Source: a virus (taxonomy: Duplodnaviria > Caudoviricetes). From it: 64,000 nt of DNA. Made by a program: the position numbers and the translations under genes. This document shows, in pieces, positions 36,943 to 53,180 of this stretch (position 1 is its first letter; the number at the start of each line of letters is the position of its first letter). The notes below the pieces were generated by a model. That model had not been told where the DNA came from, ran no database searches, and worked only from the letters and a program-made list of their open reading frames with translations. The DNA is taken from positions 1,276 through 65,275 of the IMG/VR virus record IMGVR_UViG_3300042898_000589; one strand, written 5' to 3'.

Positions 36943-36946
36943 AGGA

Positions 36947-36954
36947 CAAAGATA
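36947..36954 (-). promoter_or_regulatory. -7 promoter element TATCTTTG
   Basis: 4 nt upstream of the SSB ATG. Confidence 0.65.
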
Positions 36955-36989
36955 AGAAATATATTCTGTTGTTGTATGCGCTATGTTAA

Positions 36990-37352
36990 TTTTTTTTTTC
37001 TTCGCGCGTAATAGTAACTAGTAACTAGCGTGTAGTAATATATATTTATTTCTTGTCGCGGTACTCATCACTAGTATACAGGACTGCTTTATTGCTAGAT
37101 TCTGCGAAGACATAACTCTCCCTAAAAGGCGCCACGTTTAAAAAAAAACGAGGTTGCCCTTCGGGAAAGTTAGTGCTCCACGTCCTCTGCTTCACCGCTG
37201 AGTTCCGCTTCGTCACAACCCGATACCTTGCGGTCTCGGCAACTTAACACGCCGTTAAGCTGTCTCCCCACACAACTGCCTCAAACACGCTACAGATGTA
37301 GCCAAACTAAGGTTAGTCATCTCACGACACCCCTGTGTGGTAGGTTAAGAGA
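36990..37352 (-). ncRNA. Candidate structured non-coding RNA (boundaries approximate)
   Basis: No credible ORF. Own promoter at 37358-37365. Minus-strand stems CCGAGACC-GCAA-GGTATCGG, CAGCTTAAC/GTTAAGTTG, CCACACA/TGTGTGG, TAACTTTCCC/GGGAGAGTTA. Confidence 0.45.
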
Positions 37353-37357
37353 TGCAA

Positions 37358-37365
37358 CAAAGATA
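37358..37365 (-). promoter_or_regulatory. -7 promoter element TATCTTTG
   Basis: TAnnTTTG pointing into the ORF-free structured region. Confidence 0.55.
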
Positions 37366-37440
37366 TATCATCAATACCCTCTTGTCAATACCCCCACAGA
37401 AAAAGTTTTCAACGCTGTTGTGAGTTAGTCTGTGCTGTTG

Positions 37441-37448
37441 TATATTTG
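37441..37448 (+). promoter_or_regulatory. -7 promoter element TATATTTG
   Basis: 5 nt before the ATG at 37454. Confidence 0.65.
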
Positions 37449-37453
37449 CCTAT

Positions 37454-38400: not shown

Positions 38401-39165
38401 ATGACTCCAGTAAAGCATTACTTTATCCAAGTAGACGATGTAGACGTATTGCAGCGTCGCCTATCCAACGGAAAGATACTTTTCCTCCCGCGAAGAGATG
38501 GAGACAAGTACCGAAGCAACAGCTTCCACGGAGTACTAGCAGGAGTCCCTGAAGGTTCACGTCTACGCGTAGGTGAAACCGTGTACGTCAACTACCAAGC
38601 CATCGACACTGCAGAAAAGATTGACGGTAAGTACTACTACATCGTCCCCGAGAAACTTATTGTCGCTAAAGGAGAACTTGAAAAGACAGCATTCAACTCG
38701 CTGTTAGTCAAGCCTATACAAGCTGAGCGTCTTACTTCTTCTGTTCTAGAAATCATCCAATACGACCTACCAGCAGTAACTAAGTCCGAAGTAATCTCCA
38801 GCGACATCAAGGGATACAAAGCAGGAGACATCATCGTCCACGAGAAAGACATTGACTGGGAGTTTTTTGTCAACGAAGAGAAGTTCCTATACATCACAAT
38901 GCTCCACCGCATTATCTCTGTCAACGACAAGCTAGTAAACAACTACGTAGAAATCCAGCCGCTCCCCAGATATAAAGAACATCACGGTCTCAAAATCCCC
39001 TACACAGACCCCTGGGCAACAGGAGTATCACAACCCTACACCGACCACCAACTCTACATAGAGAGAAACAGAGTCCAACTAGAACGATACATCCACGAAG
39101 ACTACATCCACGCAGCTATACATCCCGCTCAATCCCCAGCCGCTCAAGAGCTCGTAGCAGATTAA
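38401..39165 (+). CDS. GroES-like (tandem) protein
   Basis: Two GroES-like units (GVLAGVP..LRVGETVYV..DGKYYYIVPE; LLVKPI..GYKAGDIIV..EFFVNEEKFL), as in related phages. Confidence 0.5.
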   Translation: MTPVKHYFIQVDDVDVLQRRLSNGKILFLPRRDGDKYRSNSFHGVLAGVPEGSRLRVGETVYVNYQAIDTAEKIDGKYYYIVPEKLIVAKGELEKTAFNSLLVKPIQAERLTSSVLEIIQYDLPAVTKSEVISSDIKGYKAGDIIVHEKDIDWEFFVNEEKFLYITMLHRIISVNDKLVNNYVEIQPLPRYKEHHGLKIPYTDPWATGVSQPYTDHQLYIERNRVQLERYIHEDYIHAAIHPAQSPAAQELVAD

Positions 39166-39421
39166 CATCCCGCTCACTACTCCCTATCTCTTTCCTAGGC
39201 CTCAACCAACACGCCCAAAAGACAGTGATAACACTTCTGTCTACCAACACAGCTATCCTCTCCATATCCTCAACACTAAAGTATTTATACGGTCTGTGCA
39301 ACGCCGTAAAGTACCACGTAGGCTCCTTACCCAACAGCTTACTTACCCTAGCCCTAGTATAGTTCTTATCGTAGTGTAGCCACTTATCAATAGTGCTCAC
39401 TGGTTCCTTGCTTTCTTCCAT
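39116..39421 (-). CDS. Hypothetical protein, possible HTH
   Basis: ATG at 39421 (MEESKEP), 5 nt after a promoter element. TRARVSKLLGKEPTWYF..FSVEDMERIAVL. Confidence 0.55.
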   Translation of the reverse strand: MEESKEPVSTIDKWLHYDKNYTRARVSKLLGKEPTWYFTALHRPYKYFSVEDMERIAVLVDRSVITVFWACWLRPRKEIGSSERDVNLLRALERLGIERDV

Positions 39422-39426
39422 AGAAA

Positions 39427-39434
39427 CAAAGATA
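39427..39434 (-). promoter_or_regulatory. -7 promoter element TATCTTTG
   Basis: Matches TAnnTTTG. Confidence 0.6.
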
Positions 39435-39739
39435 CGCCCGCATACCCTAACTATAGGAGAACAGAAATGTGCCCAACTAATAGAGGGACAGTATACCACA
39501 TACACAACAAGTACCCCAAAGGAAGTCAAAATCCACAACCGTGTACCCCCTCCACTAAAAGAATCACAATAGATTCTAACTTCTGTTGCACAATCCGCAA
39601 CCAATCACCACACACCATTACACATAATGCAATCTCCTCCCGAACGGAATTGCATTTCTTTCAATGCGAAGTGATTTCTGTTAACGAATCAGAACCACGC
39701 ACAGACAATTTCTAAAATTTTTAAGGTAGGTCTTTACAG

Positions 39740-39860
39740 CGTATAATCCCCCCCCTCCACCCCCCGTGCTGCCGTGAGGGGAAACGCAAAAGTGCAACGG
39801 GGTACCCCACGAAACGTACAGGAACGGCGCGCGCGGACGGACGGACGGCGTATACCTATA
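39740..39860. other. Candidate genome terminus/packaging site or origin
   Basis: Poly-C tracts, GGGGTACCCC palindrome, GGAC tandem repeat. Abrupt composition switch at the divergence between late and early modules. Confidence 0.35.
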
Positions 39861-40103
39861 AACTATTTCGGTAGGTACTAACTTTTTTTTGACTTCATTA
39901 CAGACGTTTTAAGCGCGTTTTGGTACGTCGGTGGTACTTTGGTATTACTTTTGGGAGAAAGTGGCGCAAACGGGCTGTATAGTACCTTAAAACCCCTCCT
40001 TCACCCCTTATACCCTCCCTTTCCTCGCGCACGCCCGCCGTTCAGATAGTGAAACGCCGTTGAAAATTTTAGGTATTGGTGTTGCGGGTTTAAGATATTA
40101 GTG

Positions 40104-40111
40104 TACCTTTG
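40104..40111 (+). promoter_or_regulatory. -7 promoter element TACCTTTG, first early promoter
   Basis: TAnnTTTG followed by an AT-rich leader to ATG 40150. Confidence 0.6.
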
Positions 40112-40149
40112 TTGCGTTATCCTTTGTTTAATCCCTAAAAAATGTAATA

Positions 40150-40608
40150 ATGGGAACAAAAAAGAACACCCCCGCCGCCGTAAAGGCAACCGCCGCCGCC
40201 GTCAACACCCCCGCGTTGACGGAAACAAAATTGGTATTTTTTCAGTGGGGACGGCGCGACGGCGTTGACGTTGAAACGTTCCGTTGGGAATTTGACGCCC
40301 AATTTGAGGGCGCGCCCGATATGGGGCGGTTGTCGCAATTCATCGGGCGCAAATTACAGGAATTGGCGCTAATTTACGAGCGGCAAAAATCCATAGGCGC
40401 GCCGTTCGGCGGGTTTAGTGCGTCCAAACCCCTAGAATTTAAAGTAGTGGGCACGGGCATTGCGTCGTTCGGGTCTATGCGTAACACGTTCGCCGCCTAT
40501 CTGAAAGGGAAAAAGGGGGGCAACGTAATGACGCGTGAGCAATTAGCGGCGTCCGTCCTTTCCTTGTTGGAATTGGTAGCCGTTGTCCGCGACGACGCGT
40601 CGTTGTAA
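40150..40608 (+). CDS. Hypothetical early protein (152 aa)
   Basis: Promoter and A-rich leader present. CG-rich codon usage unlike the rest of the genome. Confidence 0.7.
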   Translation: MGTKKNTPAAVKATAAAVNTPALTETKLVFFQWGRRDGVDVETFRWEFDAQFEGAPDMGRLSQFIGRKLQELALIYERQKSIGAPFGGFSASKPLEFKVVGTGIASFGSMRNTFAAYLKGKKGGNVMTREQLAASVLSLLELVAVVRDDASL

Positions 40609-40609
40609 A

Positions 40610-41430
40610 CCCCTATAATCGCCGCGCGCGGGGTACGTCCCCTTGCGTCCCCTCGTAAGGACGGCGCGCACAATAGCCCCCGACGGGGGCACGTTCTTAA
40701 ATTATTGCCCCGCCGTGCGCGGGGGGTATTGGTAGCGCCGCCGTACTACGGGGCAACGGACTACCAATACCAATAAAGGGGGGCGCGTTTAATCGCGCGC
40801 CCGTCCCCAACGCCGCCCGAATGTAAACGGGGGGCAAAGGGACGCCGCCCCCCGCACGTTGCGCCCGTTGGTCATTGCGGGCGCGTAAAAGGCGCGTTAT
40901 TTGATGTATAGGAAAGTAGCAAAAAAGGGAAAAGCCGCGCAAGGCGTCCCAATGCATAAGCCACAACGTAAGAAAGACGCCGCAAGGCGTGCCGTACTTA
41001 CGTATATGTTCTATTCCTTAACTTTTGTAAGACGCCGCAAGGCGCGCGACGTGTGAGAATTGTAGCACGTCGTAAATTGTAAATTTCTATATTTTATACT
41101 TATGCACGACGCACCACCTTTGGAAAGTGGGGAAAAGCGCGCCCAAAGACGTACGTTGTTGAAGAACAAAGAAAGGCAACGTCCCTACATTATTTTTAAT
41201 GTTTGCCCGTCCGTATTCAAGTAGTACGGCAATATCGCAAGGTATTGAGGGGTCGCGAAATCCGAAATAAATTTTGGTTTATTTACTGCAAGGTCTATTT
41301 ATATACCTTGATACTGCACGGCGGGCGCTTATTGTGTCCGTCGTGCTTTTATATGCCCTATCGGTTAACGACCTACACGTTCGCAACGTGAATAGGGCGC
41401 GGGGTACTTATGCCCTATTAACTTAAACCC
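40610..41430 (+). ncRNA. Candidate large structured non-coding RNA (~800 nt)
   Basis: Dense run of hairpins with G-U pairs and GCAA tetraloops in plus orientation; no credible ORF. Confidence 0.55.
40974..41044 (+). repeat. Direct repeat of hairpin AAGACGCCGCAAGGCG (40974-40989 and 41029-41044)
   Basis: 16-nt exact repeat; a variant AAAGCCGCGCAAGGCG lies at ~40931-40946. Confidence 0.85.
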
Positions 41431-41439
41431 TTTTTTATT

Positions 41440-41697
41440 ATGTCAGTTTCCGAATTGATTAACGCCTTTAATGTTAAGGCGGGCGTGTGTTTCGTGCCGT
41501 GCGGTTACAAACGACTAGATGAACAAATAGAGTTTATGCACCTACAAGGTGCGAATTCTAGTGTTGTGGGCGCATACATTTCGCTCAATAACTTGTTCAA
41601 TATGATTGACCAAATGTCTATGTATTGCGATATGTGGGACGCGGACGACGTTAACGAAGCCAAACAAAATGCTAATCATTTAATTCAATCTATCTAA
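41440..41697 (+). CDS. Hypothetical protein
   Basis: 85 aa with an AT-rich leader. Confidence 0.55.
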   Translation: MSVSELINAFNVKAGVCFVPCGYKRLDEQIEFMHLQGANSSVVGAYISLNNLFNMIDQMSMYCDMWDADDVNEAKQNANHLIQSI

Positions 41698-41700
41698 ACT

Positions 41701-41877
41701 ATGCGTATTGTTTTCAGTGTGGTCGCGGGCATCCTATCAATAGGTGCGGCGGCAAGTTTCTGTACTATTGCCCTACAAGCACGGGGTCTCAATGACCTAT
41801 TCTTCGCATTGCTTGCGGCGTTTGTTAGTTACTCTTTGTTCAACGTATGTAATAAGTTATCAAATGACTCTATTTAA
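41701..41877 (+). CDS. Small two-TM membrane protein (58 aa)
   Basis: MRIVFSVVAGILSIGAAASFCTIAL..DLFFALLAAFVSYSLF; not in ORF track. Confidence 0.55.
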   Translation: MRIVFSVVAGILSIGAAASFCTIALQARGLNDLFFALLAAFVSYSLFNVCNKLSNDSI

Positions 41878-42037
41878 GTCCTTCCTATATACCTACTTGG
41901 TGCTTGGGTTCGTGTCTTTGGATTTCAACCCAATGAACTATACTACTACGGGTCGTGTCGGGCTGTTGGTAGCGTGTTGTACTGTTTATGTACTCAGAAA
42001 GGTGTATCTAGAAATGGAAGCACAAGGTAAACTCTAA
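41864..42037 (+). CDS. Small membrane protein (57 aa)
   Basis: ATG 41864. SFLYTYLVLGFVSLDFNPMNY..GRVGLLVACC. Confidence 0.55.
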   Translation: MTLFKSFLYTYLVLGFVSLDFNPMNYTTTGRVGLLVACCTVYVLRKVYLEMEAQGKL

Positions 42038-42114
42038 TTCTATTATGTTATGAAGAAACAACACACGTTAAGTTATTGGACTAGCGTACAAGGACTGCAC
42101 AACGCAAAGGAAAG

Positions 42115-42417
42115 ATGAAATTTAAAGCAACATTAGATTATTGGAACCCACGAAACGAAACGGTTGTAACTGAATCGGGGTTCCGTTATCTTGATACCAC
42201 ATCGGTTATCACCAGAACGAAAGATATATCGGATGATACCGAGATAGGTTTGTTTGAGCAGTTCTATAAACTAAATAATAGTTTAAGGTATTGCAATGGT
42301 AGTCATTACACCTTTCAAGATAAGGGGTGGGAACAGAAGTACGAAGAATGGTTGAAGTCGGATGACTATAAACAAAAAAGTTTTAATCTTTACTACGGAA
42401 ACGGAGTGGTTGATTAA
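42115..42417 (+). CDS. Hypothetical protein
   Basis: 100 aa, more AT-rich than its neighbours. Confidence 0.65.
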   Translation: MKFKATLDYWNPRNETVVTESGFRYLDTTSVITRTKDISDDTEIGLFEQFYKLNNSLRYCNGSHYTFQDKGWEQKYEEWLKSDDYKQKSFNLYYGNGVVD

Positions 42418-42470
42418 ATAAGTAAAGGTGAAGCGGGCTACCTTCAAGTGTCCGTATGTATTAATCTTCT

Positions 42471-42662
42471 ATGTATATGAAGAACTTTGTTTTCAGTATG
42501 CCCGTCAATGTATGGGGGCGTACTAAGCGTCCAACCGAACCGAAGCAATACGTATCGGTTCAAGCACCCAATGAAAAGGAAGCGCGGCGACGTGTTGCCT
42601 TTAATATGGGACGGGGTAAATGTCCCGCAGGTATTCAATTGTTAAACCTAATCCACTTGTAG
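42471..42662 (+). CDS. Hypothetical small protein
   Basis: 63 aa. VSVQAPNEKEARRRV. Confidence 0.5.
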   Translation: MYMKNFVFSMPVNVWGRTKRPTEPKQYVSVQAPNEKEARRRVAFNMGRGKCPAGIQLLNLIHL

Positions 42663-42664
42663 AA

Positions 42665-44194
42665 ATGAAATTTCATCCTTCACAAATTGCCGTCGGTGAC
42701 CTTGTGTATCGTATCGGCTACCTTGAAAACGGACTATGGACTGTCCGTAGTATCCAAGAGTCCATAGGCGGCGACAACGACATAGTAGACGTACTCAACC
42801 ACAACGGACGACACGACTACGCCGCGTATCGCAGTCGCTTTATCCATAAGTCTATCGTTGACGCTATGGAGGTGGGGCGTGTATTGCTTGTACACAATCT
42901 TCGGTACGTTATTGAATCGGTTGACTTCTCGTCGGGGTATATCAATATCTCCAATGTTGAAGGCGGCGGGATAGTTCGTCTTGACTATGACCACGTAAGC
43001 GGCGGTATAGAACTACTTCAAGAAAGTATTGAGTTGGTTGAATGTCAAGCTAATCCAATGTTAGTTCGCACTATTCCAAAGAATAGGTGTACCAAGTACA
43101 AAGATAAGTGGGTACTGACTAGCGATATGCTTTGCACAGAGACAGAGCGTGACGAGGTTCCTTCTCACGCTTGGCGCTTTGACAGAGAGTATATTCAGTT
43201 ATATCATTGCAACATACTCTTACTTCGCGATGAGTTAGACGACTTAGAGTATACCGAGGCAACGGCGGGTCGTGCAGAAGGTCACGCTATTCCTGTTGAC
43301 GACTCAATCTATGTTGAGGACTCGGGCAATACGTACCACAGTGACGACCAAGGCAACTACTTCTATTGGTCTGACAGATTTGACCAATACGTAGAGGGCT
43401 GTGATAATGATAGCGATAGACACTCCTACCACGACGGTCCACGTCACGACTATTCCGACGGCGCTACTTATCGCTTCGGTGTAGAGGTAGAGAAAGAAGA
43501 CTACGACGTACTCAGTAGTTATACACTCAGTGAGTGCGACGATACGGGTTGGTCTCGTGAGGAGGACGGTTCACTTGACAGTGAGTCGGGCTATGAGTTC
43601 GTGTCCCCTATGTTTGACTTGTTCGGTGATAGGTTTGACGAGAGTCTTGCGGGACGTGTGGTTGCCGACCACGTTAACGGTGACTACTCTACTTCTTGTG
43701 GCGGGCATATGTCCTTCTCTATCAGGGGACACGACGGGCTAGAGACCTACAATCGTGTTAAGGGTTTCGTCCCCTTGATACTATCGCTGTACAGAGGTCG
43801 TCTAACTAACTCGTACTCAACAGCATACAAAGACCCCGTAGGTCGTGGTCGTGGTGCTATCAACGTAGCGAATGGCTACGTAGAGTTCCGTGTGTTCGCT
43901 GCCGTGCGCAACGTACAGAATCTCAAGAATCGCCGTGACTTACTACGAGTTATGGCTAACAATCTTGACCGCTCACCGCTATACTTTATCCGTATGGCTA
44001 TGGACGAGTCAAGTGAACTGCATCAAATCTTACGCCGCGCCTATGACCGTGACAAGTTATACGCCCGCATCGCATTGTGTGCGGGCATCGCTGAGGAGAT
44101 GACGGGTAAGAACTATATGCGGTTCGTTACCTGTGTAGACAAAGACCAACGCGCTACCGCTAAGCGTAGCGCACAATCATTAATCCAAGAATAA
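42665..44194 (+). CDS. Putative amidoligase (COOH-NH2 ligase type 2) 1
   Basis: RFGVEVEKED, EDGSL, GYEFVSP, SCGGHMSFS, YVEFRVF. Likely ATG 42665. Confidence 0.85.
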   Translation: MKFHPSQIAVGDLVYRIGYLENGLWTVRSIQESIGGDNDIVDVLNHNGRHDYAAYRSRFIHKSIVDAMEVGRVLLVHNLRYVIESVDFSSGYINISNVEGGGIVRLDYDHVSGGIELLQESIELVECQANPMLVRTIPKNRCTKYKDKWVLTSDMLCTETERDEVPSHAWRFDREYIQLYHCNILLLRDELDDLEYTEATAGRAEGHAIPVDDSIYVEDSGNTYHSDDQGNYFYWSDRFDQYVEGCDNDSDRHSYHDGPRHDYSDGATYRFGVEVEKEDYDVLSSYTLSECDDTGWSREEDGSLDSESGYEFVSPMFDLFGDRFDESLAGRVVADHVNGDYSTSCGGHMSFSIRGHDGLETYNRVKGFVPLILSLYRGRLTNSYSTAYKDPVGRGRGAINVANGYVEFRVFAAVRNVQNLKNRRDLLRVMANNLDRSPLYFIRMAMDESSELHQILRRAYDRDKLYARIALCAGIAEEMTGKNYMRFVTCVDKDQRATAKRSAQSLIQE

Positions 44195-44200
44195 TTTATT

Positions 44201-45037
44201 ATGTGTATCGCAATCCTTAACAAAGGCGGGCAAATCTCCCGCGAATCTTTACTCAACTGTTGGGAATCCAACGACGACGGCGCAGGTATCTTGTATGTCA
44301 ACAACGACAAGCTCGGTGTGTACAAGCAACCTAACAAGGGACGCAAGTCCTTTGAGCAGTTCTACTCTACGTATCAACGACTCTATAATTCTAGTGCGGG
44401 TATGCCTATGCTACTGCACTTCCGTATCGCTACGCACGGGTTCGGTGATAAGTTCCTTCACCCATTCCTTGTATCAGATACGCTAGGTCTAGTACACAAC
44501 GGCATCATCAGCGGGCTAGGTGACCACAACTACTCAGATACCGCTGAGTTCCGTGACATTATTGCGGGTGTTCCCGACGAGTGGAAGCAAGACGTATCGC
44601 TGTTCTCTATCCCACTTGTTGACCAAGTTACTGCCGACCTACTAGGTACGTACAACAAGGTCATCTTCCTAGATGCACAAGGCGACCACGTTATCTACAA
44701 CGAGGAGTCGGGTATATGGGACGAAGACAATTGGTATTCCAATAGTGCTTATCGTTCTCGTGTCCGCTACTATGGACACTACGCACAGCCACTGTCAACT
44801 GCCGCCACAAAGTATTATGGGTGGGACGAAGACGATTTGATTGACGGTGTTGATGACAAGCGCACACAAGATTACTACGACGAGATTACTGATGACCTCA
44901 CCGAAGAATTGTTTGACTGTGCTGAGTGTCTTGAGACTTGTCAAGTAGACGGAGATGCTCAGTGTGTGTCTTGCGGGTCATACAATCCCGCTGCTGTTGA
45001 CTATGTATTACGTAAAAACTATGCTGATTTATTATGA
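44201..45037 (+). CDS. Class II (Ntn) glutamine amidotransferase 1 with C-terminal Zn-ribbon-like CxxC pairs
   Basis: N-terminal MC, NDDGAG, HFRIATHG, HPF, VHNGII, SDT; CAEC..CVSC. Confidence 0.88.
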   Translation: MCIAILNKGGQISRESLLNCWESNDDGAGILYVNNDKLGVYKQPNKGRKSFEQFYSTYQRLYNSSAGMPMLLHFRIATHGFGDKFLHPFLVSDTLGLVHNGIISGLGDHNYSDTAEFRDIIAGVPDEWKQDVSLFSIPLVDQVTADLLGTYNKVIFLDAQGDHVIYNEESGIWDEDNWYSNSAYRSRVRYYGHYAQPLSTAATKYYGWDEDDLIDGVDDKRTQDYYDEITDDLTEELFDCAECLETCQVDGDAQCVSCGSYNPAAVDYVLRKNYADLL

Positions 45038-46608
45038 TAACTTACAATGTAATTGAACGCAAGTTCTACAACTCAGAGGGCGGAGTGTCCTCGGGTGCTA
45101 TGTCTATCTACCGAGATTGTCTAAGCGTCCTCAATCAAGGTAATCACATACCCTTTACTCTGTTTGCTACGCATCGTACTCACTCTATCAATGGTAGTAT
45201 GATAGACCTTGTACGTTCTCAACAGTATGTACTCAGTGAGGATAGTACGGGGCGAAGACTAAGCGGCAATCCCCAAGATAATCATATATCTGTTGCAGGT
45301 GATGGTTACACGTACGATACCGTTGACTTTCTATCCCCGTTTGTTTGTTTCGTCAACCGAGTTGACGACGACCTAACTATCAACTATGTTAACGGTCTCA
45401 GCATTGTTGTAATGCCAGGAGTCTGCCCATCTAGTGATGCTTCTCGTATAGTAACTACTCATTTGCTTGACAGCAATGGAGAAGTTGAGGAAGAGTTCAT
45501 TGCAACTGTTGATAACGTGGGTGCTATCAGGGTTATTAACTCAGCAATCTTTGAACACGGCACAGCATTTATGCAACACATAAGTGCACTACCTAGTCAA
45601 GACAGTGAGTCCTTGCCAAGCAATAGACATACGAACGAGCTCATCCATATGTCGTCAACACCTAGAGCCATAGATGATAGCCGTGGTCCTCGTCTATTCC
45701 GATACCATCACGGACCACGAGGCAACAAACTTATTGGTTCTGATAACTTCCGCATAGGGTTTGAGGTAGAGAAAGAAGATGAGGTATCGCGTAACAAGTA
45801 CGCTGCCCGTGTCGTTTCCAAAGAAACTATGTGGTCTAAGGAACGTGATGGTTCACTTTGTGAAAGAAGCGGGTTTGAGTTAGTGTCACCTGTCTATGGA
45901 CTGTATGAGTCAGTGCTTGACGATGACCTCAAGATGGACATCTTGCGGGAGCATATCAACGCTGACATATCATCTAGTTGCGGCGGTCACGTCCACCTAT
46001 CCAAGCGTGCCACGACTGGAGAGGAGTTGTTTGACTCTCTATCTTCTTGGATACCAATGATTTACTCACTGTATGTTGGTCGTATCCATCGTCACTACTG
46101 CCGAGTCAAGAAGAACGATGACATCATAAACGGAGAGGATAAGTACCAATCAATACGAATCTTTGATGACCGTGTTGAGTTCCGTATCATCTCTGCTGTA
46201 CGTGACGTTGACAATCTAGTATGGCGTCGTGACTTGTTTCGTATCATCTGCCGCAACCTAGACATCACTCCCTTCTCTGTTGTGTCTATGCTTAGTGACA
46301 AGAAGTCCGAACTCTATAAGCATCTTGCCGAGGTGTACTCAGAGTCTAGCATCCGTAAGAAACTTAAACTCTATGCTTTCTTTGCGGACGAACTGCTTGA
46401 CGTTGAGCATAAGGTAAGTATGGACGGTGTTCGTGCCGCTGATATGTTCTCTAGTGCACAGATTCAACACCTTAAGAACCATCAGTTCAACCTAGGTGAT
46501 GACGATGGTGCTAATGCTGCTACTATCTCAGCAGTTAGGATAAACAACTCCTTCATTGTATCAGACACAGTTCCAACCTTCCTACCATCAGATACTTTAC
46601 CCTATTAA
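45034..46608 (+). CDS. Putative amidoligase (COOH-NH2 ligase type 2) 2
   Basis: RIGFEVEKED, RDGSL, GFELVSP, SCGGHVHLS, KYQSI, RVEFRII. Confidence 0.88.
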   Translation: MITYNVIERKFYNSEGGVSSGAMSIYRDCLSVLNQGNHIPFTLFATHRTHSINGSMIDLVRSQQYVLSEDSTGRRLSGNPQDNHISVAGDGYTYDTVDFLSPFVCFVNRVDDDLTINYVNGLSIVVMPGVCPSSDASRIVTTHLLDSNGEVEEEFIATVDNVGAIRVINSAIFEHGTAFMQHISALPSQDSESLPSNRHTNELIHMSSTPRAIDDSRGPRLFRYHHGPRGNKLIGSDNFRIGFEVEKEDEVSRNKYAARVVSKETMWSKERDGSLCERSGFELVSPVYGLYESVLDDDLKMDILREHINADISSSCGGHVHLSKRATTGEELFDSLSSWIPMIYSLYVGRIHRHYCRVKKNDDIINGEDKYQSIRIFDDRVEFRIISAVRDVDNLVWRRDLFRIICRNLDITPFSVVSMLSDKKSELYKHLAEVYSESSIRKKLKLYAFFADELLDVEHKVSMDGVRAADMFSSAQIQHLKNHQFNLGDDDGANAATISAVRINNSFIVSDTVPTFLPSDTLPY

Positions 46609-46620
46609 TTGTAATAACCT

Positions 46621-47703
46621 ATGTGTATAATTGTAGTAAACAAAGAGGGGCGTGACATCGCTGCCCCTATCATTGACAAGTGTATAACTAATAACCCGCA
46701 CGGATTCGGCATCTATTTCCTTGACGACCAGCGTCTGCACAAGACTATGGATATGGACGAGGCACGCTATATGCTAGCGTCACGCCGACCATACGTAGCC
46801 CACTGCCGATACGCTACCGTCGGAGAGAAGACAGTAGACAACGTGCATCCCTTTGAGGTTCAGGAAGATGCGTTCTTATTCCACAACGGAACAGTACGCA
46901 CACGCCCCGAGGATACAACCAAGTCTGACTCTTGGGCATTGGCTCAACTCATCTCCCGCTATGACCCTATGGGTGATGAGGTACAGCACATCCTTGAGAT
47001 GACTGACTCACGATTCTGTATTGTCAAGGGCAACGAGTTCAAGTTATTCAATGAGGACTTATGGCACGAGCACGAGGGTGTTATGTACTCCAAGGATAAC
47101 GTACTGCCATCTGAGTTAGTGTTTGTTTATGAGGCATCACTTCTCAAGCACGACTCGTACCATACTAAGTTTCTTACCGATGCAGGTGAAGCGTATCTAG
47201 AAAATGCTTACCTTTACCGACTGAAAAGAGGTACTCTTGTGAAGGGTTGTATGGTACACGAAAAGGATAAGCACATTATTGAGGGCTGTTTGTTCAGCGG
47301 CGTCACTCAGTATGACCTCGGCAATCTAGATAGATTCCACGCGGGCGCTAGGCGTACGTCTGTTACTGTCAAAGACCTTGACGGTAATAGTATCCGTGCT
47401 ATCACTTGGTTGTATGACTTCCCTACTACTGAGTGTGATTGGGGTAGCCACTCTATGGACTTCACACCTACATATTGGCACGGCAACTTGAACCTGCCAG
47501 CCACATCAATAGACCCCTTCACCAAGTTCTGCCGCGAGACATATGATAGTTACCTACCTACTACACACACAGCACAGCAGACAGCTAATTGGATGGAGAC
47601 TAAGAAGTTTAATCTAGAAAGAATAGTCAACTACTACACAGACAAGACGGGATTCGTTCCCACTATCAGTCAATTGAATAACAAATTAATCTATATGTCA
47701 TAA
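46621..47703 (+). CDS. Class II glutamine amidotransferase 2 fused to a degenerate gamma-glutamylcyclotransferase-like domain
   Basis: MCII, NPHGFG, HCRYATVG, NVHPF, FHNGT, SDS; then VFVYEASL..LDRFH..RTSVTV..AITWLY. Confidence 0.8.
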   Translation: MCIIVVNKEGRDIAAPIIDKCITNNPHGFGIYFLDDQRLHKTMDMDEARYMLASRRPYVAHCRYATVGEKTVDNVHPFEVQEDAFLFHNGTVRTRPEDTTKSDSWALAQLISRYDPMGDEVQHILEMTDSRFCIVKGNEFKLFNEDLWHEHEGVMYSKDNVLPSELVFVYEASLLKHDSYHTKFLTDAGEAYLENAYLYRLKRGTLVKGCMVHEKDKHIIEGCLFSGVTQYDLGNLDRFHAGARRTSVTVKDLDGNSIRAITWLYDFPTTECDWGSHSMDFTPTYWHGNLNLPATSIDPFTKFCRETYDSYLPTTHTAQQTANWMETKKFNLERIVNYYTDKTGFVPTISQLNNKLIYMS

Positions 47704-47939
47704 TGCAAGAAGTAAAACGCACATACCGATTCGAGCGCGAGTATCTTAATCACCGCTCAGAGAACTCTAAAGTAGTAACAGAAGTAGAAGTTGACTTCTC
47801 TAACAAGACTTTCTTTATTGACAACGTGACCACGCATAACTTCCACGGTCACTGTACCGACTACCACCTACCGAAGATGGTAGCCTCACTTGAAATCCAA
47901 TTAGAAGCAATCTATGCCGTCCAACAATTACTTTCGTGA
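47703..47939 (+). CDS. Hypothetical protein
   Basis: 78 aa, translationally coupled. Confidence 0.55.
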   Translation: MQEVKRTYRFEREYLNHRSENSKVVTEVEVDFSNKTFFIDNVTTHNFHGHCTDYHLPKMVASLEIQLEAIYAVQQLLS

Positions 47940-48078
47940 GACGTATGACTTCCTCCAACTCCGCGTCGAGGCAATGGAGAAGCACATACAAAAACTAGAG
48001 GCCGAGCTTGCTGCCTGCGAAGCAAGAGAAGTACAACAGATGATTGATGAGCGATGCTCAAACGATATGGTATCTTGA
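47914..48078 (+). CDS. Small coiled-coil protein (54 aa)
   Basis: MPSNNYFRETYDFLQLRVEAMEKHIQKLEAEL; fills a gap in the operon. Confidence 0.45.
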   Translation: MPSNNYFRETYDFLQLRVEAMEKHIQKLEAELAACEAREVQQMIDERCSNDMVS

Positions 48079-48304
48079 GGTTGAGGTCAAGTATCTAAAG
48101 AAGAACGTATACTTCTTCAAGGACACTTGGATTATATCTAGGTACGATAACATCAGAGACATCACCCGCTGTGACCATAAGACTTTCCACGGATTCGCTG
48201 GACTACACACTAGAATCTATGGTGCTGCTTATAAATCACAGCGGGAAATCATCATCACCAAAATCAAATCTAAAATTCCAATCGGTAAAGTATCACCACA
48301 ATGA
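48047..48304 (+). CDS. Hypothetical protein
   Basis: ~85 aa in the operon. Confidence 0.5.
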   Translation: MSDAQTIWYLEVEVKYLKKNVYFFKDTWIISRYDNIRDITRCDHKTFHGFAGLHTRIYGAAYKSQREIIITKIKSKIPIGKVSPQ

Positions 48305-48543
48305 AACTAAACGAAGAACAATTCCAACAGTCAGAATTCAAAATCAAACTGAAAGTAGACAGTAAGTTCTACGATGTAACTGTAAAGCCAGACAGCGATG
48401 AGATGTGGGTACCTATCGGAGACACACCATACGATATGTATATGTATGTCGGTACTGATAAGCATCTGAATATCAGTGTGTTGAAGTTCGCTGAGCCGCA
48501 CGTTAAAGTTAACTTTGAAATCGTATCAATTAAAATCAAATGA
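48301..48543 (+). CDS. Hypothetical protein
   Basis: 80 aa, ATGA overlaps at both ends. Confidence 0.55.
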   Translation: MKLNEEQFQQSEFKIKLKVDSKFYDVTVKPDSDEMWVPIGDTPYDMYMYVGTDKHLNISVLKFAEPHVKVNFEIVSIKIK

Positions 48544-49091
48544 TATACAAGTTCAACAAGGAGACGCTCACCTTTGATAGGGTGGGCTCTCCAACTAAGA
48601 GGCTGTTCGCAGCCATATCACTAACAGCATTACTATCAGTAGCGGGAGGCGTACTGATGGGGAGTCGTGAGATATACACGCCCGAAGAAGTTATCCAAGT
48701 AAACATTAATGAGGAACCCTTCTCTGAGCAGGCTCTCGTTAGACTACTGAAGAAGATGAACCTTAAGTATCCGCACATCGCTCTTGCTCAAGCAAAGATT
48801 GAAAGCGGTGGGTATAAGTCCTTCTTATTCAGAGAGAACAACAACCTGTTTGGTATGCGTGAGGCTAAGGTCAGAGTCAATATGGCTATGGGTACACGAC
48901 ATAAGCACGCCTACTATGAGTCGTGGCAAGAGAGTGTCATCGACTATGCTATGTGGTGTGCTACCTATGGTGCTAAGTGTAAGACAGAAGACCAGTTCCT
49001 CAATCTATTGGCGGGCTATGCTGAAGCATCTCAGTACAAGGAGACAATCATCAGTGTAGTTAACAAGAACAATCTTAAATCTAAGTTCTAA
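48540..49091 (+). CDS. Membrane-anchored glucosaminidase (GH73-like peptidoglycan hydrolase)
   Basis: N-terminal TM segment; AQAKIESG, NNNLFGM, YESWQESVIDY, GYAE..Y. Confidence 0.8.
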   Translation: MIYKFNKETLTFDRVGSPTKRLFAAISLTALLSVAGGVLMGSREIYTPEEVIQVNINEEPFSEQALVRLLKKMNLKYPHIALAQAKIESGGYKSFLFRENNNLFGMREAKVRVNMAMGTRHKHAYYESWQESVIDYAMWCATYGAKCKTEDQFLNLLAGYAEASQYKETIISVVNKNNLKSKF

Positions 49092-49372
49092 TGTCACGTA
49101 AGACACGCAAACAAAAGGTAGATGAGGTATCGCAAGAACTCATCAATGAGATGTTCAGAATCGCTGGACATAACGTAACCTTTGAAGACGTCAAAGGACG
49201 AACAGATGATTGGTACACCCAATGGACTATCACACCGCAACAGAATGAGGAGTGGAAGAAGTTCGGTGTAGCACTAATCAGAACAAAGCTCAAGCTCCCT
49301 AAGAAAATAGCCGAGCTTGAGATGGCACACTTCTCACTTGCTTACGGATTAAAATTTTCAGAATGGTACTAG
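49091..49372 (+). CDS. Hypothetical conserved phage protein
   Basis: 93 aa. LINEMFRIAGHNVTFEDV..WYTQWT. Confidence 0.6.
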   Translation: MSRKTRKQKVDEVSQELINEMFRIAGHNVTFEDVKGRTDDWYTQWTITPQQNEEWKKFGVALIRTKLKLPKKIAELEMAHFSLAYGLKFSEWY

Positions 49373-50088
49373 TATTAGGAGACACCCACGGCAGGGACAA
49401 TTGGAAGCGGGCAATAGACAATCACACACCCGATAAGGTTGTGTTCCTTGGTGATTACTTTGACTCCTTTGATATCTCTTCTGGCAAACAAGTTCTCAAC
49501 TTCAACGACATCGTAGAGTATAAGAAGACAGCAGAGATGCCTGTCGTACTTCTTATCGGTAACCACGACCACCACTACATCAAGCCTAGTGATGGCGGTA
49601 TAGGGACAGAGAGGTACAGTGGCTATCAGTACGCTAATGCCGCTGAGATTAAGGCTGCAATAACAGAACACAGAGAACATCTATGCATTGCACACCTAGA
49701 CAATGGGTTTCTGTTCACTCACGCTGGGCTTAGCCCCATATGGTTGAGCAAGAACATTCCTGGATATGATATGGATGTAGTTGATAAGCAACTGAATGAA
49801 CTGTATGCAACTGACTCACGTCGCTTCGACTTCAATGATAGTACTGTCAACCCTTACGGTGATGACGTTAGGCAAGGGCCTCTTTGGATTCGTCCTATGT
49901 CTTTATTCAACTCAAATAAGGGGCGGGACAGAGTGCCATACAACCAAATGGTAGGGCACACACAAGTCAAGAGCATTATGGATACAGTAAACAACCCTAA
50001 GATGAGTGGCTTCTTTCTTATTGATGCTATGGAAGATGGTGGGTACGTAACTATTGAGGATGGCGTTGTTATCCCACACGTTTTGTAG
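49363..50088 (+). CDS. Calcineurin-like metallophosphoesterase
   Basis: GDTHG, GDYFD, GNHD, THAG, VGHT motifs. Confidence 0.9.
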   Translation: MVLVLGDTHGRDNWKRAIDNHTPDKVVFLGDYFDSFDISSGKQVLNFNDIVEYKKTAEMPVVLLIGNHDHHYIKPSDGGIGTERYSGYQYANAAEIKAAITEHREHLCIAHLDNGFLFTHAGLSPIWLSKNIPGYDMDVVDKQLNELYATDSRRFDFNDSTVNPYGDDVRQGPLWIRPMSLFNSNKGRDRVPYNQMVGHTQVKSIMDTVNNPKMSGFFLIDAMEDGGYVTIEDGVVIPHVL

Positions 50089-50104
50089 TATGAAAAACTT
50101 TTCT

Positions 50105-50112
50105 TATCTTTG
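50105..50112 (+). promoter_or_regulatory. -7 promoter element TATCTTTG
   Basis: 4 nt before a GTG; would also drive the tRNA. Confidence 0.6.
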
Positions 50113-50116
50113 AGGC

Positions 50117-50260
50117 GTGGACAACTTTCCTTCACAATGGGACTTCGAAGGCGTGCGTACGTGCCTGTATTGCAGTGAGATGCTCAATGCTCACCGCCCG
50201 CTGGACTTGTATTGTAGTGATGACTGTGAGTCCACACATACAAAGACAAGAATATACTAG
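50117..50260 (+). CDS. 47-aa Zn-finger-like peptide
   Basis: CLYC...YCSDDC. GTG start; the last base of its TAG is the first base of the tRNA. Confidence 0.5.
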   Translation: MDNFPSQWDFEGVRTCLYCSEMLNAHRPLDLYCSDDCESTHTKTRIY

Positions 50261-50331
50261 GCCTCATAGTTTAACGCATAAAACTCTCCTCTTCTAAAGG
50301 AGTAATGACAGTTGGATTCTGTCTGAGGCTA
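50260..50331 (+). tRNA. tRNA-Arg(UCU), CCA not encoded
   Basis: Acceptor GGCCTCA/TGAGGCT, D stem GTTT/AAAC, anticodon arm CTCCT-CTTCTAA-AGGAG, T arm GACAG-TTGGATT-CTGTC. Confidence 0.85.
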
Positions 50332-50349
50332 CAAATTAAATTATTAATT

Positions 50350-50952
50350 ATGAACAAGTTAGAATTCTTAGACATTTACTTGTCACCATTCAAGAGTCCG
50401 AAGATGAAGTTCTACTTCGGCAAGACCAAGATTGGTACTCCTTACTTCCTCCCGCGTAAGTTCGTAAAGAACACACCCGAGAACGCACTGAAGGAAGCTA
50501 AGCGTAGGCAGGCTGAGATGATATACGAAAGGGATAACAACCCTGAGAATCCATTCACCTCTCGCATACCAACGATTGAATCTATCATCAGTGAGATGAA
50601 GTATGACCGCATACCTGTGACCAAGAGATTCTCTATCGACCTTGTGCCATTGGGGTACAAGACTAAGTGGTCTGAGACTGACTATAGATTTGAGTGGTCG
50701 CCACGCCTGTCTATTGTAGCCTTTGGTTATCAGTTCGCTATCACTTGGGAAGCGCCAGTTGAATCGGTGTACTACTGGGAGGCGTTCCTTCTGTACAACA
50801 ATCACATTAAAACTTTCTTATCTGATAAGCCTATGCGGGAGAGGGTTAGTATGTGTAGGGATTTATTCCCGATGTCCTTTACTGAGTACAAGAAGGATAG
50901 CAAGAGAACATTCGATGAGTATGATACAATCTTAAAGAAGAAGTACCTATGA
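50350..50952 (+). CDS. Hypothetical conserved phage protein
   Basis: ATG 50350. SPFKSPK..GTPYFLPRK, LGYKTKW..YRFEWSP, YWEAFL. Confidence 0.65.
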   Translation: MNKLEFLDIYLSPFKSPKMKFYFGKTKIGTPYFLPRKFVKNTPENALKEAKRRQAEMIYERDNNPENPFTSRIPTIESIISEMKYDRIPVTKRFSIDLVPLGYKTKWSETDYRFEWSPRLSIVAFGYQFAITWEAPVESVYYWEAFLLYNNHIKTFLSDKPMRERVSMCRDLFPMSFTEYKKDSKRTFDEYDTILKKKYL

Positions 50953-51128
50953 AGGAAGACTGCAGCAAGTGTGAGCAGACAGTAGCTAACTGCGAATGCC
51001 ACATCCCGCTAAGGGAAAAGCACAAGGGTCTGTTCAATATGGTAGACCTATTCAAGAAGATAACATCTAATAAGAAAGGGTTATAGCTGGCACCCTCAAG
51101 ACAGCAAACAAATTAATTCATTTCAATT

Positions 51129-51368
51129 ATGGGTAAGATGTTTACCGAACAAGAAGTGCGGGCAATGCTTCGTCAAGTCCGCAAAGAAACACGTCAGGAA
51201 GTTCTCTCAGAGAAGAAGCGTCCACGTGTGACAGCAGAGCGCGTTGTTGAAATACTCAACAGCACAAACACAATCGGTGGCGCAGCCACAATGCTTGGCG
51301 TGACTACGCAGACGATGAGAAACTATATGCGTAAGCACAACGTAACAAAGCAGTACGTTACTCAATGA
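51129..51368 (+). CDS. Small HTH DNA-binding protein (Fis-like C-terminus)
   Basis: TIGGAATMLGVTTQTMRNYMRKHNV. Confidence 0.7.
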   Translation: MGKMFTEQEVRAMLRQVRKETRQEVLSEKKRPRVTAERVVEILNSTNTIGGAATMLGVTTQTMRNYMRKHNVTKQYVTQ

Positions 51369-52273
51369 GTTTCGTAGATACACAGTATGCCTCCCTTGTC
51401 AGTTACGCACTCTCTCAAGGGGTGCGGGCTGACAGGACGGGGGTTGGCACTCGCTCGTTTCTATATGGTGCTATCCGCCACGATATGCGTGATGGTTTTC
51501 CTGCACTGACAATCAAGCGATTAGCGTGGCATCAAGTAGTCACTGAACTACTTTGGTTTCTACGTGGTGATACCGATATCAAGTACCTAGTTGAGAACGG
51601 GTGCAACATATGGAATGGTGATGCTTACAATGCATACCTTAACAGCACTGATGAACCTCATATGACAATGAGTGACTTCATTAAGCAAATCAACAGCGGT
51701 GAACTACATCAAGACCTCGGCCCTATCTACGGTCATCAGTGGCGTAAGTGGACAGTAGGTCACGGTGGTATCGACCAGATTGCACAGGTGTATGACTCAC
51801 TGCGTAACAATCCTTTCTCTCGTAGGCACATCGTATCTGCGTGGAATGTTGGTGACCTCAGCAGTATGGCACTACCACCTTGCCACTACTCCTTTCAGTT
51901 CTATGTTACTGAAATGCTTGGAGAGAAGTACTTAAGTCTTATGTGGAACCAACGCTCAGTGGACTTGTTCCTTGGGTTGCCGTTCAACATTGCTTCATAT
52001 GGTTTACTCCTACATATTATGGCGGATGCTGTTGGTATGATACCGCATATGCTTATCGGTAGCCTTGGTGATTGCCACCTGTATGCAAACCATACTGATG
52101 CCGCCAAAGAACTATTGAAGAATAAGACTAGCCGCTACGACTACCCAAAGTTATCTATGTCACCAAGCGGATACGACGTACTCTTCAAGACAATGAAGAT
52201 ATCCCCGTATGACTTCAAGTTAAACGGATACGAATGCTACCCAACAATCAAAGCCAAACTGAACAATGGATGA
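51365..52273 (+). CDS. thyA: Thymidylate synthase
   Basis: DRTGVGT, ELLWFLRG, LGPIYGHQWR, MALPPCH, QRSVDLFLGLPFNIASY, DCHLYANH. Confidence 0.97.
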   Translation: MSFVDTQYASLVSYALSQGVRADRTGVGTRSFLYGAIRHDMRDGFPALTIKRLAWHQVVTELLWFLRGDTDIKYLVENGCNIWNGDAYNAYLNSTDEPHMTMSDFIKQINSGELHQDLGPIYGHQWRKWTVGHGGIDQIAQVYDSLRNNPFSRRHIVSAWNVGDLSSMALPPCHYSFQFYVTEMLGEKYLSLMWNQRSVDLFLGLPFNIASYGLLLHIMADAVGMIPHMLIGSLGDCHLYANHTDAAKELLKNKTSRYDYPKLSMSPSGYDVLFKTMKISPYDFKLNGYECYPTIKAKLNNG

Positions 52274-53172: not shown

Positions 53173-53180
53173 TACATTTG
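53173..53180 (+). promoter_or_regulatory. -7 promoter element TACATTTG
   Basis: 3 nt before the ATG at 53184. Confidence 0.55.

What the first reader, a model, noticed from the sequence alone, without database searches (positions are those of the whole stretch)
40610..41430. ~800-nt densely structured non-coding region directly behind the first early gene: candidate new large phage RNA
Seen in sequence: in an otherwise gene-dense genome, ~800 nt lack a credible ORF and consist of consecutive stems. Examples are GGTATTGGTAG/CTACCAATACC nested in CGTGCGCGGGGGG/CCCCCCGCACG (~40714-40858), GCGCCCG/CGGGCGC, ACGTAAG/CTTACGT enclosing ACGCC-GCAA-GGCGT, CGACGTG/CACGTCG, CAATATC-GCAA-GGTATTG (41230-41247), GCACGGCGGGCGC/GTGTCCGTCGTGC (41316-41346, three G-U pairs) and GCCCTAT/ATAGGGC. 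G-U pairs and GNRA loops work only on the plus strand, the same direction as the promoter at 40104 and the orphan 152-aa gene. Established: large phage ncRNAs of unknown function exist (GOLLD, ROOL). Inference: this is a large structured RNA made right after infection, possibly acting with the upstream protein. I could not match it to any family by eye.
Basis: partly seen in the sequence, partly recalled or inferred. Interest (0 to 1): 0.85.

Follow-up and report, generated by a model that had tools for sequence, protein, structure and literature searches.

The report
Structured early RNA region in lake phage
A lake-water phage of the crAss-related kind carries, right behind its first early gene, an 830-base stretch with no gene in it whose many hairpins are kept intact by paired mutations in related phages, so it is most likely a new structured RNA of unknown job.

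Summary
Rfam gives nothing. Two metagenome relatives (L007, L008) were the only homologues I could fetch. On them the first 300 nt (D1, 40609-40915) show 19 of 79 predicted pairs changed on both sides with pairing kept (97% of cells paired; slid controls 1-6). The middle third (D2) is replaced by unrelated sequence in L008, except one hairpin with a conserved 12-nt loop and three compensated pairs. The last part (D3) holds a 13-bp terminator hairpin with a U tract. So it is modular, not obviously one large RNA. Best reading: the long structured 3' part of the immediate-early transcript from the conserved TACCTTTG promoter. Strand and RNA-versus-DNA are not settled for D1, and expression rests on one 171-nt metatranscriptome contig. 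The closest precedent is the pair of abundant, persistent early long non-coding RNAs of crAss-like phage phi14:2, with no sequence likeness. Function is inferred only. The scan had not noted this element on other DNA.

The parts
40104..40111 (+). TACCTTTG, a match to the Bacteroidota -7 promoter box TAnnTTTG (consensus recalled), 39 nt before the ATG of the 152-aa gene
   Evidence: Motif scan; identical in window, L007 and L008. No such box on either strand inside 40609-41439.
40150..40608 (+). 152-aa first early gene, real and under purifying selection, family unknown
   Evidence: 15 homologues at 63-96% identity. All 17 differences to L007 lie at third codon positions; L008 gives 32/19/75 by codon position. 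No Pfam or PHROG family. AF2 pLDDT 66.9, no fold match with E <= 0.001.
40609..40915 (+). D1: GC-rich multi-helix domain of about 300 nt with 12 predicted helices, among them hairpins 40676-90 and 40725-71 (apical CCGT-loop-ACGG), optional inner hairpins 40778-40853, and hairpin 40861-84. CCTATA 40612 and TATAGG 40909 may close it.
   Evidence: RNAalifold and pair counts on window, L007 and L008: 19 of 79 pairs changed on both sides, 97.3% of 226 cells paired, 0 of 500 shuffles as high, slid controls 1-6 pairs. z -4.44. Core 40672-40772 is 92% identical to L008, against 70-74% for the gene. No second copy in the window or L001-L010.
40916..41270 (+). D2: variable middle module with three GCAA-capped hairpin repeats (40922-41047), a hairpin 41047-41072 with 12-nt loop TGAGAATTGTAG, an AT-rich tract and hairpin 41230-47
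   Evidence: Repeat family D1. 38% identity to L008, which is unrelated sequence. The exception is the hairpin with loop conserved at 11 of 12 bases and 3 of 5 aligned pairs changed on both sides (read). z only -2.06 to -2.28. The RNA-library contig lies at 41034-41205.
41271..41439 (+). D3: hairpin 41289-41310, intrinsic-terminator-like hairpin 41316-41346 with tail TTTTATAT, branched hairpin 41355-41398 containing CACGTT-CGC-AACGTG, and last hairpin to about 41430
   Evidence: Terminator scan. z -5.6. Plus strand -59.9 against minus -43.6 kcal/mol. G-U to G-C change at 41335 in L008, X9 and X21, and paired change 41380 T>C with 41386 A>G in X21. 99.4% identical in L008, so otherwise uninformative.

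Best explanation
The stretch is a real, selected set of nucleic-acid folds. Most likely it is the long structured 3' untranslated part of the phage's immediate-early transcript. Host RNA polymerase would start at the conserved TACCTTTG box (40104), read the 152-aa gene, then transcribe D1 (40609-40915), D2 (40916-41270) and D3. It would mostly stop at the 13-bp hairpin with U tract at 41316-41353. I commit to a cis role. The folded RNA would protect the first early message from 3' exonucleases. Together with the terminator it would gate how much transcription runs on into the next plus-strand genes, which lack an exact host-type promoter box in intergenic DNA until about 48.5 kb. That is an insulator or read-through control, like a nut or put RNA placed between the first early gene and the first terminator. 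Shown: no coding capacity, excess folding, compensatory changes, conserved promoter box, terminator-like hairpin, linkage to the gene. Inferred: that it is RNA, the plus strand for D1, the transcript ends, and any effect on termination or stability. My odds: selected structure 0.9; acts as RNA and not DNA 0.7; plus strand 0.75; the cis stability or termination-gating role 0.35-0.4.
For: No ORF, and frame-breaking indels between relatives. Folding z -5.95, with three consecutive outlier windows; L008's version z -8.07. D1: 19 of 79 pairs with double changes, 97.3% of cells paired, slid controls 1-6. Of the differences window versus L007 that fall on aligned, ungapped positions, 8 are compensated pairs, 2 are single changes that keep the pair, 3 break a pair and 18 lie in unpaired columns. 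D2 hairpin with conserved loop and covarying stem. D3 paired change 41380/41386 in X21 and G-U to G-C at 41335. Promoter box conserved in 3 of 3 sequences and none inside the region. Terminator-like hairpin with T tract on the plus strand only; D3 is 16 kcal/mol better on plus. Contigs of X3, X9 and X21 bridge the gene end and D1. One RNA-library contig covers 41034-41205. Exact plus-strand TAnnTTTG boxes after 40104 lie inside genes until 48510 and 50105.
Against: Only three sequences, and the structure was predicted on the same alignment, so the counts lean towards it. D1 folds as well or better on the minus strand in all three sequences (-164 vs -159, -145 vs -131, -121 vs -120). In its firmer helices wobble cells are about 3 G-U against 1 A-C (my count on the pair table), so neither strand nor RNA-versus-DNA is settled there. 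D2 is replaced in L008, and two D1 hairpins are dispensable. This fits loose 'any hairpin will do' constraints as well as a precise fold. Identity levels are incongruent: L007's gene is nearly identical but its D1 core is 84%, while L008's gene is 72% but its D1 core is 92%. Recombination therefore blurs the conservation arguments. Transcription is not shown; the RNA library may hold DNA, and contigs give no strand or ends. Near-consensus boxes such as GAACTTTG at 42481 could drive downstream genes, which would remove the need for read-through. The three GCAA hairpins, candidate protein sites, are absent from L008's version.
Confidence: 0.4

Rival explanations
1. A trans-acting, abundant and stable early non-coding RNA (or several, cut from the transcript), possibly forming a particle with the 152-aa protein. 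It would act on the host, for example as a decoy or sponge for a host RNA-binding or defence protein, or in takeover of host machinery. It would be the counterpart of the early long non-coding RNAs of crAss-like phage phi14:2.
For: Passages of bioRxiv 10.1101/2020.03.07.982082 report two long intergenic regions beside a small early gene of phi14:2. They are transcribed rightward above most genes, from the earliest time point, without later decline, and their function is unknown. The layout is the same here: ORF-free 39605-40149 and 40609-41439 flank the 152-aa gene. The virion module is crAss-related: the 1469-aa protein hits the crAss muzzle family at E 1.3e-20. D1 has invariant unpaired tracts and D2 a conserved 12-nt loop, as binding sites would. 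The only piece seen in an RNA library lies in this region. [quoted passage not shown]
Against: No sequence or model likeness to the phi14:2 left end: nhmmer found none and cmsearch gave best E 0.46. That region is AT-rich and not notably structured; 1 of 20 windows reaches z -3.2. The protein shows no RNA-binding family or fold. No complement of the conserved loop stands out in the genome: 17 matches against 13.6 expected. Abundance and stability are untested here.
Confidence: 0.3
2. A DNA-level element whose hairpins form in single-stranded or supercoiled DNA: a replication origin or priming site, a packaging or genome-end signal, or an ejection pause next to the first gene to enter the cell (as in the first-step-transfer DNA of T5; recalled).
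For: Compensatory changes keep hairpins on both strands equally, and D1 is at least as stable on the minus strand. There is an AT-rich tract at about 41066-41100 next to GC-rich hairpins, and a three-fold repeat spaced 43 and 55 nt. The cumulative GC skew has its minimum near 39.9-40.0 kb. A sharp GC-rich island (55-62% against roughly 40-50% beside it) spans 40.2-40.95 kb.
Against: The skew switch coincides with the switch of gene direction, so it does not locate an origin. The repeats are absent from L008's version. The branched, nested helices and a terminator with a T tract on one strand fit RNA better. No data on genome ends: the runs laid were contigs only, with no read starts. The contig ends elsewhere, and a repeat of about 183 bases at its two ends suggests a circular assembly.
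Confidence: 0.15
3. No single function: a recombination-prone junction filled with terminator-like and stabilising hairpins and remnants of swapped cassettes, in which only 'being a hairpin' is selected.
For: Mosaic pattern: D2 swapped, inner D1 hairpins present or absent, the 85-aa ORF 41440-41697 present here but skipped in L008 and in contigs of X3, X9 and X21, D3 99% identical in an otherwise 72%-identical relative. Assemblies break into 160-470-nt contigs here in three runs. Several hairpins score as terminator-like on one or the other strand.
Against: A 37-nt unpaired-plus-paired tract of D1 is invariant in L008 and differs at 3 positions in L007, and the 12-nt loop of D2 is kept, while neighbouring stems change by paired substitutions. 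This points to sequence-specific constraint. D1 is kept behind the gene in every relative seen.
Confidence: 0.12
4. Hidden protein-coding sequence: small ORFs or a changed genetic code.
For: Short ORFs of 30-89 aa exist on both strands.
Against: Indels of 52, 2 and 1 nt between relatives break every frame. Substitutions fall as paired changes in stems, not by codon position. Reading TGA and TAG through gives at most 155 aa on the plus strand, with 5 read-through codons. The rest of the genome is dense under table 11.
Confidence: 0.03

Closest known systems
Early long non-coding RNAs of crAss-like Cellulophaga phage phi14:2 (g004-g005 and g005-g006 junctions; bioRxiv 10.1101/2020.03.07.982082, passages read)
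   Same: A Bacteroidota phage with a crAss-type virion module. Long ORF-free stretches flank one small gene at the start of the early, rightward gene block. Function unknown. In record NC_021806 about 1.7 kb (2905-4601) now stands without genes after the old ORF calls were removed.
   Different: No sequence or covariance-model likeness. phi14:2's region is 18-35% GC and not clearly structured, whereas this one is GC-rich and strongly folded. phi14:2 early genes are read by a virion RNA polymerase with a DFDxD motif. No such motif occurs in the 3590-aa protein here or in any open stretch of 200 aa or more, and a host-type promoter box precedes the gene. High, lasting expression is shown there and not here.
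Large ornate bacterial and phage RNAs GOLLD and ROOL (Rfam families; bioRxiv 10.1101/2024.12.08.627333 seen as abstract in the listing)
   Same: Several hundred nucleotides, many helices, phage-borne, lake or metagenome origin, no known function.
   Different: No match to any of 4227 Rfam models, even at E up to 10 with lax filters on 39700-41700. Here the middle third is exchangeable and the distribution seen so far is one phage lineage.
Cis-acting read-through RNAs between a first early gene and its terminator: lambda nutR/boxB and HK022 putR (recalled); RNA antitermination in Tn916 (PMC11658703, abstract in the listing)
   Same: The order promoter, small first gene, structured RNA, strong intrinsic terminator, later genes on the same strand.
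   Different: Those elements are about 15-75 nt with one or two stem-loops; this is 830 nt. No likeness was tested or is expected, and an effect on polymerase is pure inference.
Candidate structured RNAs of viruses and phages (Fremin et al., PMC10690425; abstract and passages read)
   Same: Comparative-genomics candidates from IMG/VR, many of them terminators or gene-linked hairpins.

Membership tests
Any Rfam 15 family (including GOLLD, ROOL, HEARO, ribozymes, introns, tRNA-like, 6S) | Covariance-model score at or above the gathering threshold | tested here: not met
   Window at gathering thresholds: only tRNA at 50260. 39700-41700 at E <= 10: three chance-level rows, 11.8-19.5 bits against thresholds of 42-50. 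ARAGORN: only that tRNA.
Structured non-coding RNA (general) | Base pairs kept through compensatory substitutions among homologues | tested here: met
   D1: 19 of 79 pairs, 0 of 500 shuffles as high, slid controls 1-6, but with only 3 sequences. D2 hairpin: 3 of 5 aligned pairs. D3: one pair in X21.
Structured non-coding RNA (general) | Folding energy below dinucleotide shuffles | tested here: met
   z -5.95 for the whole region, -4.44 D1, -2.06 D2, -5.6 D3; L008 -8.07.
Structured non-coding RNA (general) | Transcribed, from the stated strand | tested here: inconclusive
   One 171-nt contig (41034-41205) in one metatranscriptome library. It gives no strand, and DNA carry-over is possible.
Intrinsic (Rho-independent) terminator, for 41316-41353 | GC-rich stem-loop directly followed by a T/U tract on the transcribed strand | tested here: met
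   13 pairs, 9 of them G-C, loop of 5, tail TTTTATAT. A pattern match only; termination was not assayed.
phi14:2-type early lncRNA | Long ORF-free stretch beside a small gene at the head of the early block, same direction as the early genes | tested here: met
phi14:2-type early lncRNA | Sequence or structure homology to the phi14:2 regions | tested here: not met
   nhmmer: no hit. cmsearch with R1 (D1 core): best 8.4 bits, E 0.46. tblastn of the 152-aa protein: nothing on L010.
phi14:2-type early lncRNA | Very high and persistent RNA level through infection | not testable with these tools
   Needs an infection time course; no host or isolate is known.
put/nut-type antitermination RNA | RNA acts on the transcribing polymerase so that it reads through downstream terminators | not testable with these tools
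   Only the gene order fits.

The most novel reading that the evidence does not exclude
D1-D3 is a new class of large, early-made phage RNA that folds into a defined architecture. Alone or with the orphan 152-aa protein it would disarm or hijack a host factor at the very start of infection. The abundant early lncRNAs of crAss-like phages such as phi14:2 would then be functional counterparts, making early RNA effectors a general trait of Bacteroidota podophages.
Probability: 0.2. Interest if true: 0.85.

Novelty: new variant of a known kind. Interest (0 to 1): 0.6.

Why it matters
Phage non-coding RNAs are few and mostly unexplained. crAss-related phages are among the most abundant viruses of Bacteroidota, and in the one studied model the most strongly transcribed early products are long non-coding RNAs of unknown role. 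Here a related lake phage offers a version with clear compensatory evolution. It has a conserved 100-nt core, a conserved 12-nt loop, a linked orphan protein and natural variants with deleted or swapped modules. That gives concrete handles (which helices, which loops) for asking what such early RNAs do. If it only tunes termination and mRNA stability, it is still a useful, unusually large example of 3'-UTR architecture in organisms whose transcription signals are poorly mapped.

Tried and rejected
Homologue hunting was mostly empty.
- blastn 'distant' of 39600-41500 against 50,697 phage records: no match.
- tblastn of the 152-aa protein there: one chance row at E 0.06.
- IMG/VR scans with the protein, its alignment, the 254-aa neighbour and a D1 pattern: nothing.
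- GTDB genomes with the alignment and a D1 pattern: nothing.
- The amidoligase neighbour gave six IMG/VR loci (L001-L006, 33-42% identity). None has likeness to the region by nhmmer or by the D1-core model.
- L001 and L002 have a 1.18-kb ORF-free divergent junction of a different kind.
- Flavobacterium phage elemoA has no comparable gap in its annotated first 50 kb.

Other checks that led nowhere.
- Shared promoter-like k-mers among intergenic stretches: none.
- A pairing target for the conserved loop: not above chance. Near-copies of the loop motif: 3 against 0.9 expected, reached by 5 of 100 shuffles.
- An inverted repeat bracketing the cassette (40086-40101 with 41415-41430): its left arm is not kept in L008 (read), so I take it as chance.
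- GNRA loops as a strand marker: not enriched.
- An N4-type or crAss-type virion polymerase reading hairpin or single-stranded promoters: no Pfam family in the 3590-aa protein and no DFDxD motif, so dropped.
- The 152-aa protein: no Pfam or PHROG family, no fold match, and the Atlas gave only unnamed viral clusters at 0.86-0.88.
- Notes of the scan held only first-reader notes on this same genome and two unrelated rows.
- Parts of the stretch without cover in the RNA run X24 say nothing.
- Supplements of PMC10690425 and of the phi14:2 paper may hold motif lists and expression tables that bear on novelty.

Full report
CONTEXT. The window is 64,000 of the 65,275 bases of a one-contig phage genome. 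A repeat of about 183 bases at the two contig ends suggests a circular assembly. The large terminase is about 32% identical to those of Flavobacterium 'elemo' and Cellulophaga podophages. The portal and terminase hit phage families. The 1469-aa protein hits the Crassvirus muzzle family at E 1.3e-20. Runs that hold the stretch are labelled lake or fresh water, plus one sponge run. Genes are dense. The minus-strand virion block ends at 36942 and the plus-strand block runs from 41440 to 60861. The largest ORF-free gaps are 36943-37453, about 39605-40149 and 40609-41439.

OBSERVATION. No ORF exceeds 89 aa. That minus-strand ORF is broken by a 52-nt deletion in a relative. Reading TGA and TAG through does not open a credible frame.

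The region folds at -329 kcal/mol against -281 +/- 8 for shuffles (z -5.95). The minus strand gives z -4.55. In 300-nt windows the three windows over the region give z -3.65, -4.08 and -3.2. Elsewhere 121 windows average -0.85 (sd 1.2) and four of them reach -3.2. By module, D1 (40609-40915) gives -4.44, D2 (40916-41270) -2.06 and D3 (41271-41439) -5.6.

Rfam gives no match at gathering scores and none of any weight at E up to 10. GC is 55-62% over 40.2-40.95 kb against roughly 40-50% beside it.

THE GENE IN FRONT. The 152-aa gene has 15 homologues of 63-96% identity, all unnamed. All 17 nucleotide differences to L007 are at third codon positions, so it is a real gene. It has no Pfam or PHROG family. 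A model of pLDDT 66.9 has no fold match. The Atlas gives only unnamed viral clusters.

A TACCTTTG box, fitting the Bacteroidota -7 consensus TAnnTTTG (recalled), lies 39 nt before the ATG. It is identical in all three sequences. No such box lies inside the region on either strand.

One scan of JGI metagenomes gave two contigs.
- L007: the gene is 100% identical in protein, and the contig covers D1 only.
- L008: the gene is 76% identical, and the contig covers the whole region and beyond.
All other searches were empty.

Upstream of the gene, L007 is 98% identical to the window. It differs at 14 of 158 bases in the last third of the gene (91% identity), all silent, and its identity is 79-84% across most of D1. 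L008 is 70-74% identical in the gene, 57% in the first 63 nt of D1, 92% in the D1 core, 38% in D2 and 99.4% in D3. The locus is therefore a recombination mosaic. Raw identity levels must be read with care.

COVARIATION. On the three-sequence alignment RNAalifold predicts 79 pairs in 12 helices for D1. Nineteen pairs show a change on both sides with pairing kept. Of 226 cells, 97.3% are standard pairs. None of 500 column shuffles reaches any of the five measures, and sliding the partners by 1-3 columns leaves 1-6 such pairs and 43-53% paired.

Examples:
- The 11-bp stem 40725-35/40761-71 has four pairs altered in L007, one of them to G-U, and one altered in L008.
- The inner hairpin near 40812-40835 changes three pairs doubly and one singly in L007.
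- The first two hairpins, 40630-40663, are rewritten in L008 with pairing kept.
- 40861-84 changes C-G to U-A in L008.

Limits: there are three sequences only, and the structure was derived from them. Some helices never vary and have exclusive alternatives.

In D2, the hairpin 41047-72 has a counterpart in L008 with the 12-nt loop kept at 11 of 12 bases and three of five aligned pairs changed on both sides. In D3, contigs of run X21 carry 41380 T>C together with 41386 A>G, which are paired positions. L008, X9 and X21 turn a G-U at 41335 into G-C.

MODULARITY. L008 lacks 52 nt of D1, which removes two inner hairpins. One X21 contig replaces 78 nt there by 25 others. D2 exists in at least two unrelated alleles. 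Loose ends of X3 and X9 contigs at 40890 run on into the L008-type sequence, while other contigs of X3, X9 and X21 carry the window type. The three GCAA-capped repeats belong to the window type only. The 85-aa ORF 41440-41697 is absent from L008 and is skipped by contigs of X3, X9 and X21. A model of the D1 core finds no second copy in the window, in six IMG/VR loci, in elemoA or in phi14:2.

STRAND AND MOLECULE. D3 is much better on the plus strand (-59.9 against -43.6 kcal/mol). Its 13-bp hairpin with three G-U pairs and the tail TTTTATAT fits a terminator pattern. D2 is slightly better on plus. D1 is not: the minus strand is equal or better in all three sequences, and wobble cells do not decide. 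GNRA-capped hairpins are not enriched. For D1 the plus strand therefore rests on context: promoter box, gene direction and terminator. An RNA and not a DNA role rests on the nested, branched helices.

Expression evidence is one 171-nt contig (41034-41205, two other letters) in one metatranscriptome library. It gives no strand and does not exclude DNA carry-over.

WHAT IT MOST LIKELY IS. I read it as the structured 3' untranslated part of the immediate-early transcript. It would start after the 40104 box, contain the 152-aa gene and end mainly at about 41350. I take its most likely role as acting in cis. It would shield the first message from 3' decay and, with the terminator, set how much transcription continues into the following genes. 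Exact host-type boxes in intergenic DNA do not recur on the plus strand until 48510 and 50105, although near-matches exist. This mechanism is inference and I give it 0.35-0.4.

The main rival (0.3) is a trans-acting stable RNA or RNA-protein particle. A DNA-level element (0.15) and a function-poor hairpin junction (0.12) remain open. Coding is all but excluded.

CLOSEST KNOWN. In crAss-like Cellulophaga phage phi14:2, two long intergenic regions around a small early gene are transcribed rightward above most genes. They appear from the first time point without later decline, and their function is unknown (passages). The public record now shows about 1.7 kb there without genes. The layout matches the two gaps around the 152-aa gene here.

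There is no sequence or model likeness. That region is AT-rich and hardly structured. phi14:2 early genes depend on a virion polymerase with a DFDxD motif, which I do not find here. GOLLD, ROOL and all other Rfam families are excluded as homologues.

VERDICT. The feature is real, and the compensatory evidence for D1 is strong for so few sequences. It is a new, lineage-restricted structured element that matches no known family, built from exchangeable modules. 'One large new phage RNA acting with the upstream protein' is possible but not shown. Interest 0.6.

Noticed in passing
window 41440-41697: The 85-aa ORF just after the region is an accessory insert. It is absent from L008 and skipped (41434 to 41700) by contigs of runs X3, X9 and X21, with 2-5 other letters at the joint.
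   Followed up: partly
window 16666-21075 (-) and 3748-14520 (-): The 1469-aa protein hits the Crassvirus muzzle family (N-terminal 150 aa at E 1.3e-20, C-terminal domain weakly). The neighbouring 3590-aa protein has no Pfam family and no DFDxD motif. This points to a crAss-related tail in a 65-kb genome without a recognisable crAss-type virion polymerase.
   Followed up: partly
window 39116-39440 (-): The C-terminal roughly 100 aa of the minus-strand ORF 39116-39604 read like a small regulator. A TAnnTTTG box sits at 39434 on that strand, divergent from the early promoter. The stretch 39450-39750 is strongly C-rich on the plus strand. Judged by eye only.
   Followed up: no
genome contig C1, bases 1-183 and 65093-65275: The two ends of the 65,275-base contig repeat each other over about 183 bases with a few differences. 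This is either a circular-assembly overlap or paralogous fibre-gene sequence.
   Followed up: no
L001/L002 5225-6402: A more distant relative (amidoligase 42% identical) has a 1.18-kb ORF-free divergent junction with repeated catagccaaa-cctatc-like motifs. It looks like iterons or operator arrays and is unlike the region studied.
   Followed up: no
window 40740-40749 and 41221-41230: The apical part of the D1 hairpin (GCCGTACTAC) is perfectly complementary over 10 nt to a D2 hairpin arm 470 nt downstream. This may be a long-range or intermolecular contact. L008 has a changed D1 loop and no exact partner, and L007 lacks D2, so it could not be tested.
   Followed up: partly
L010 (NC_021806) 2905-4601: In the phi14:2 record all ORF calls in this 1.7-kb stretch were removed in June 2020. 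This matches the paper's statement that the stretch yields long non-coding RNAs.
   Followed up: partly
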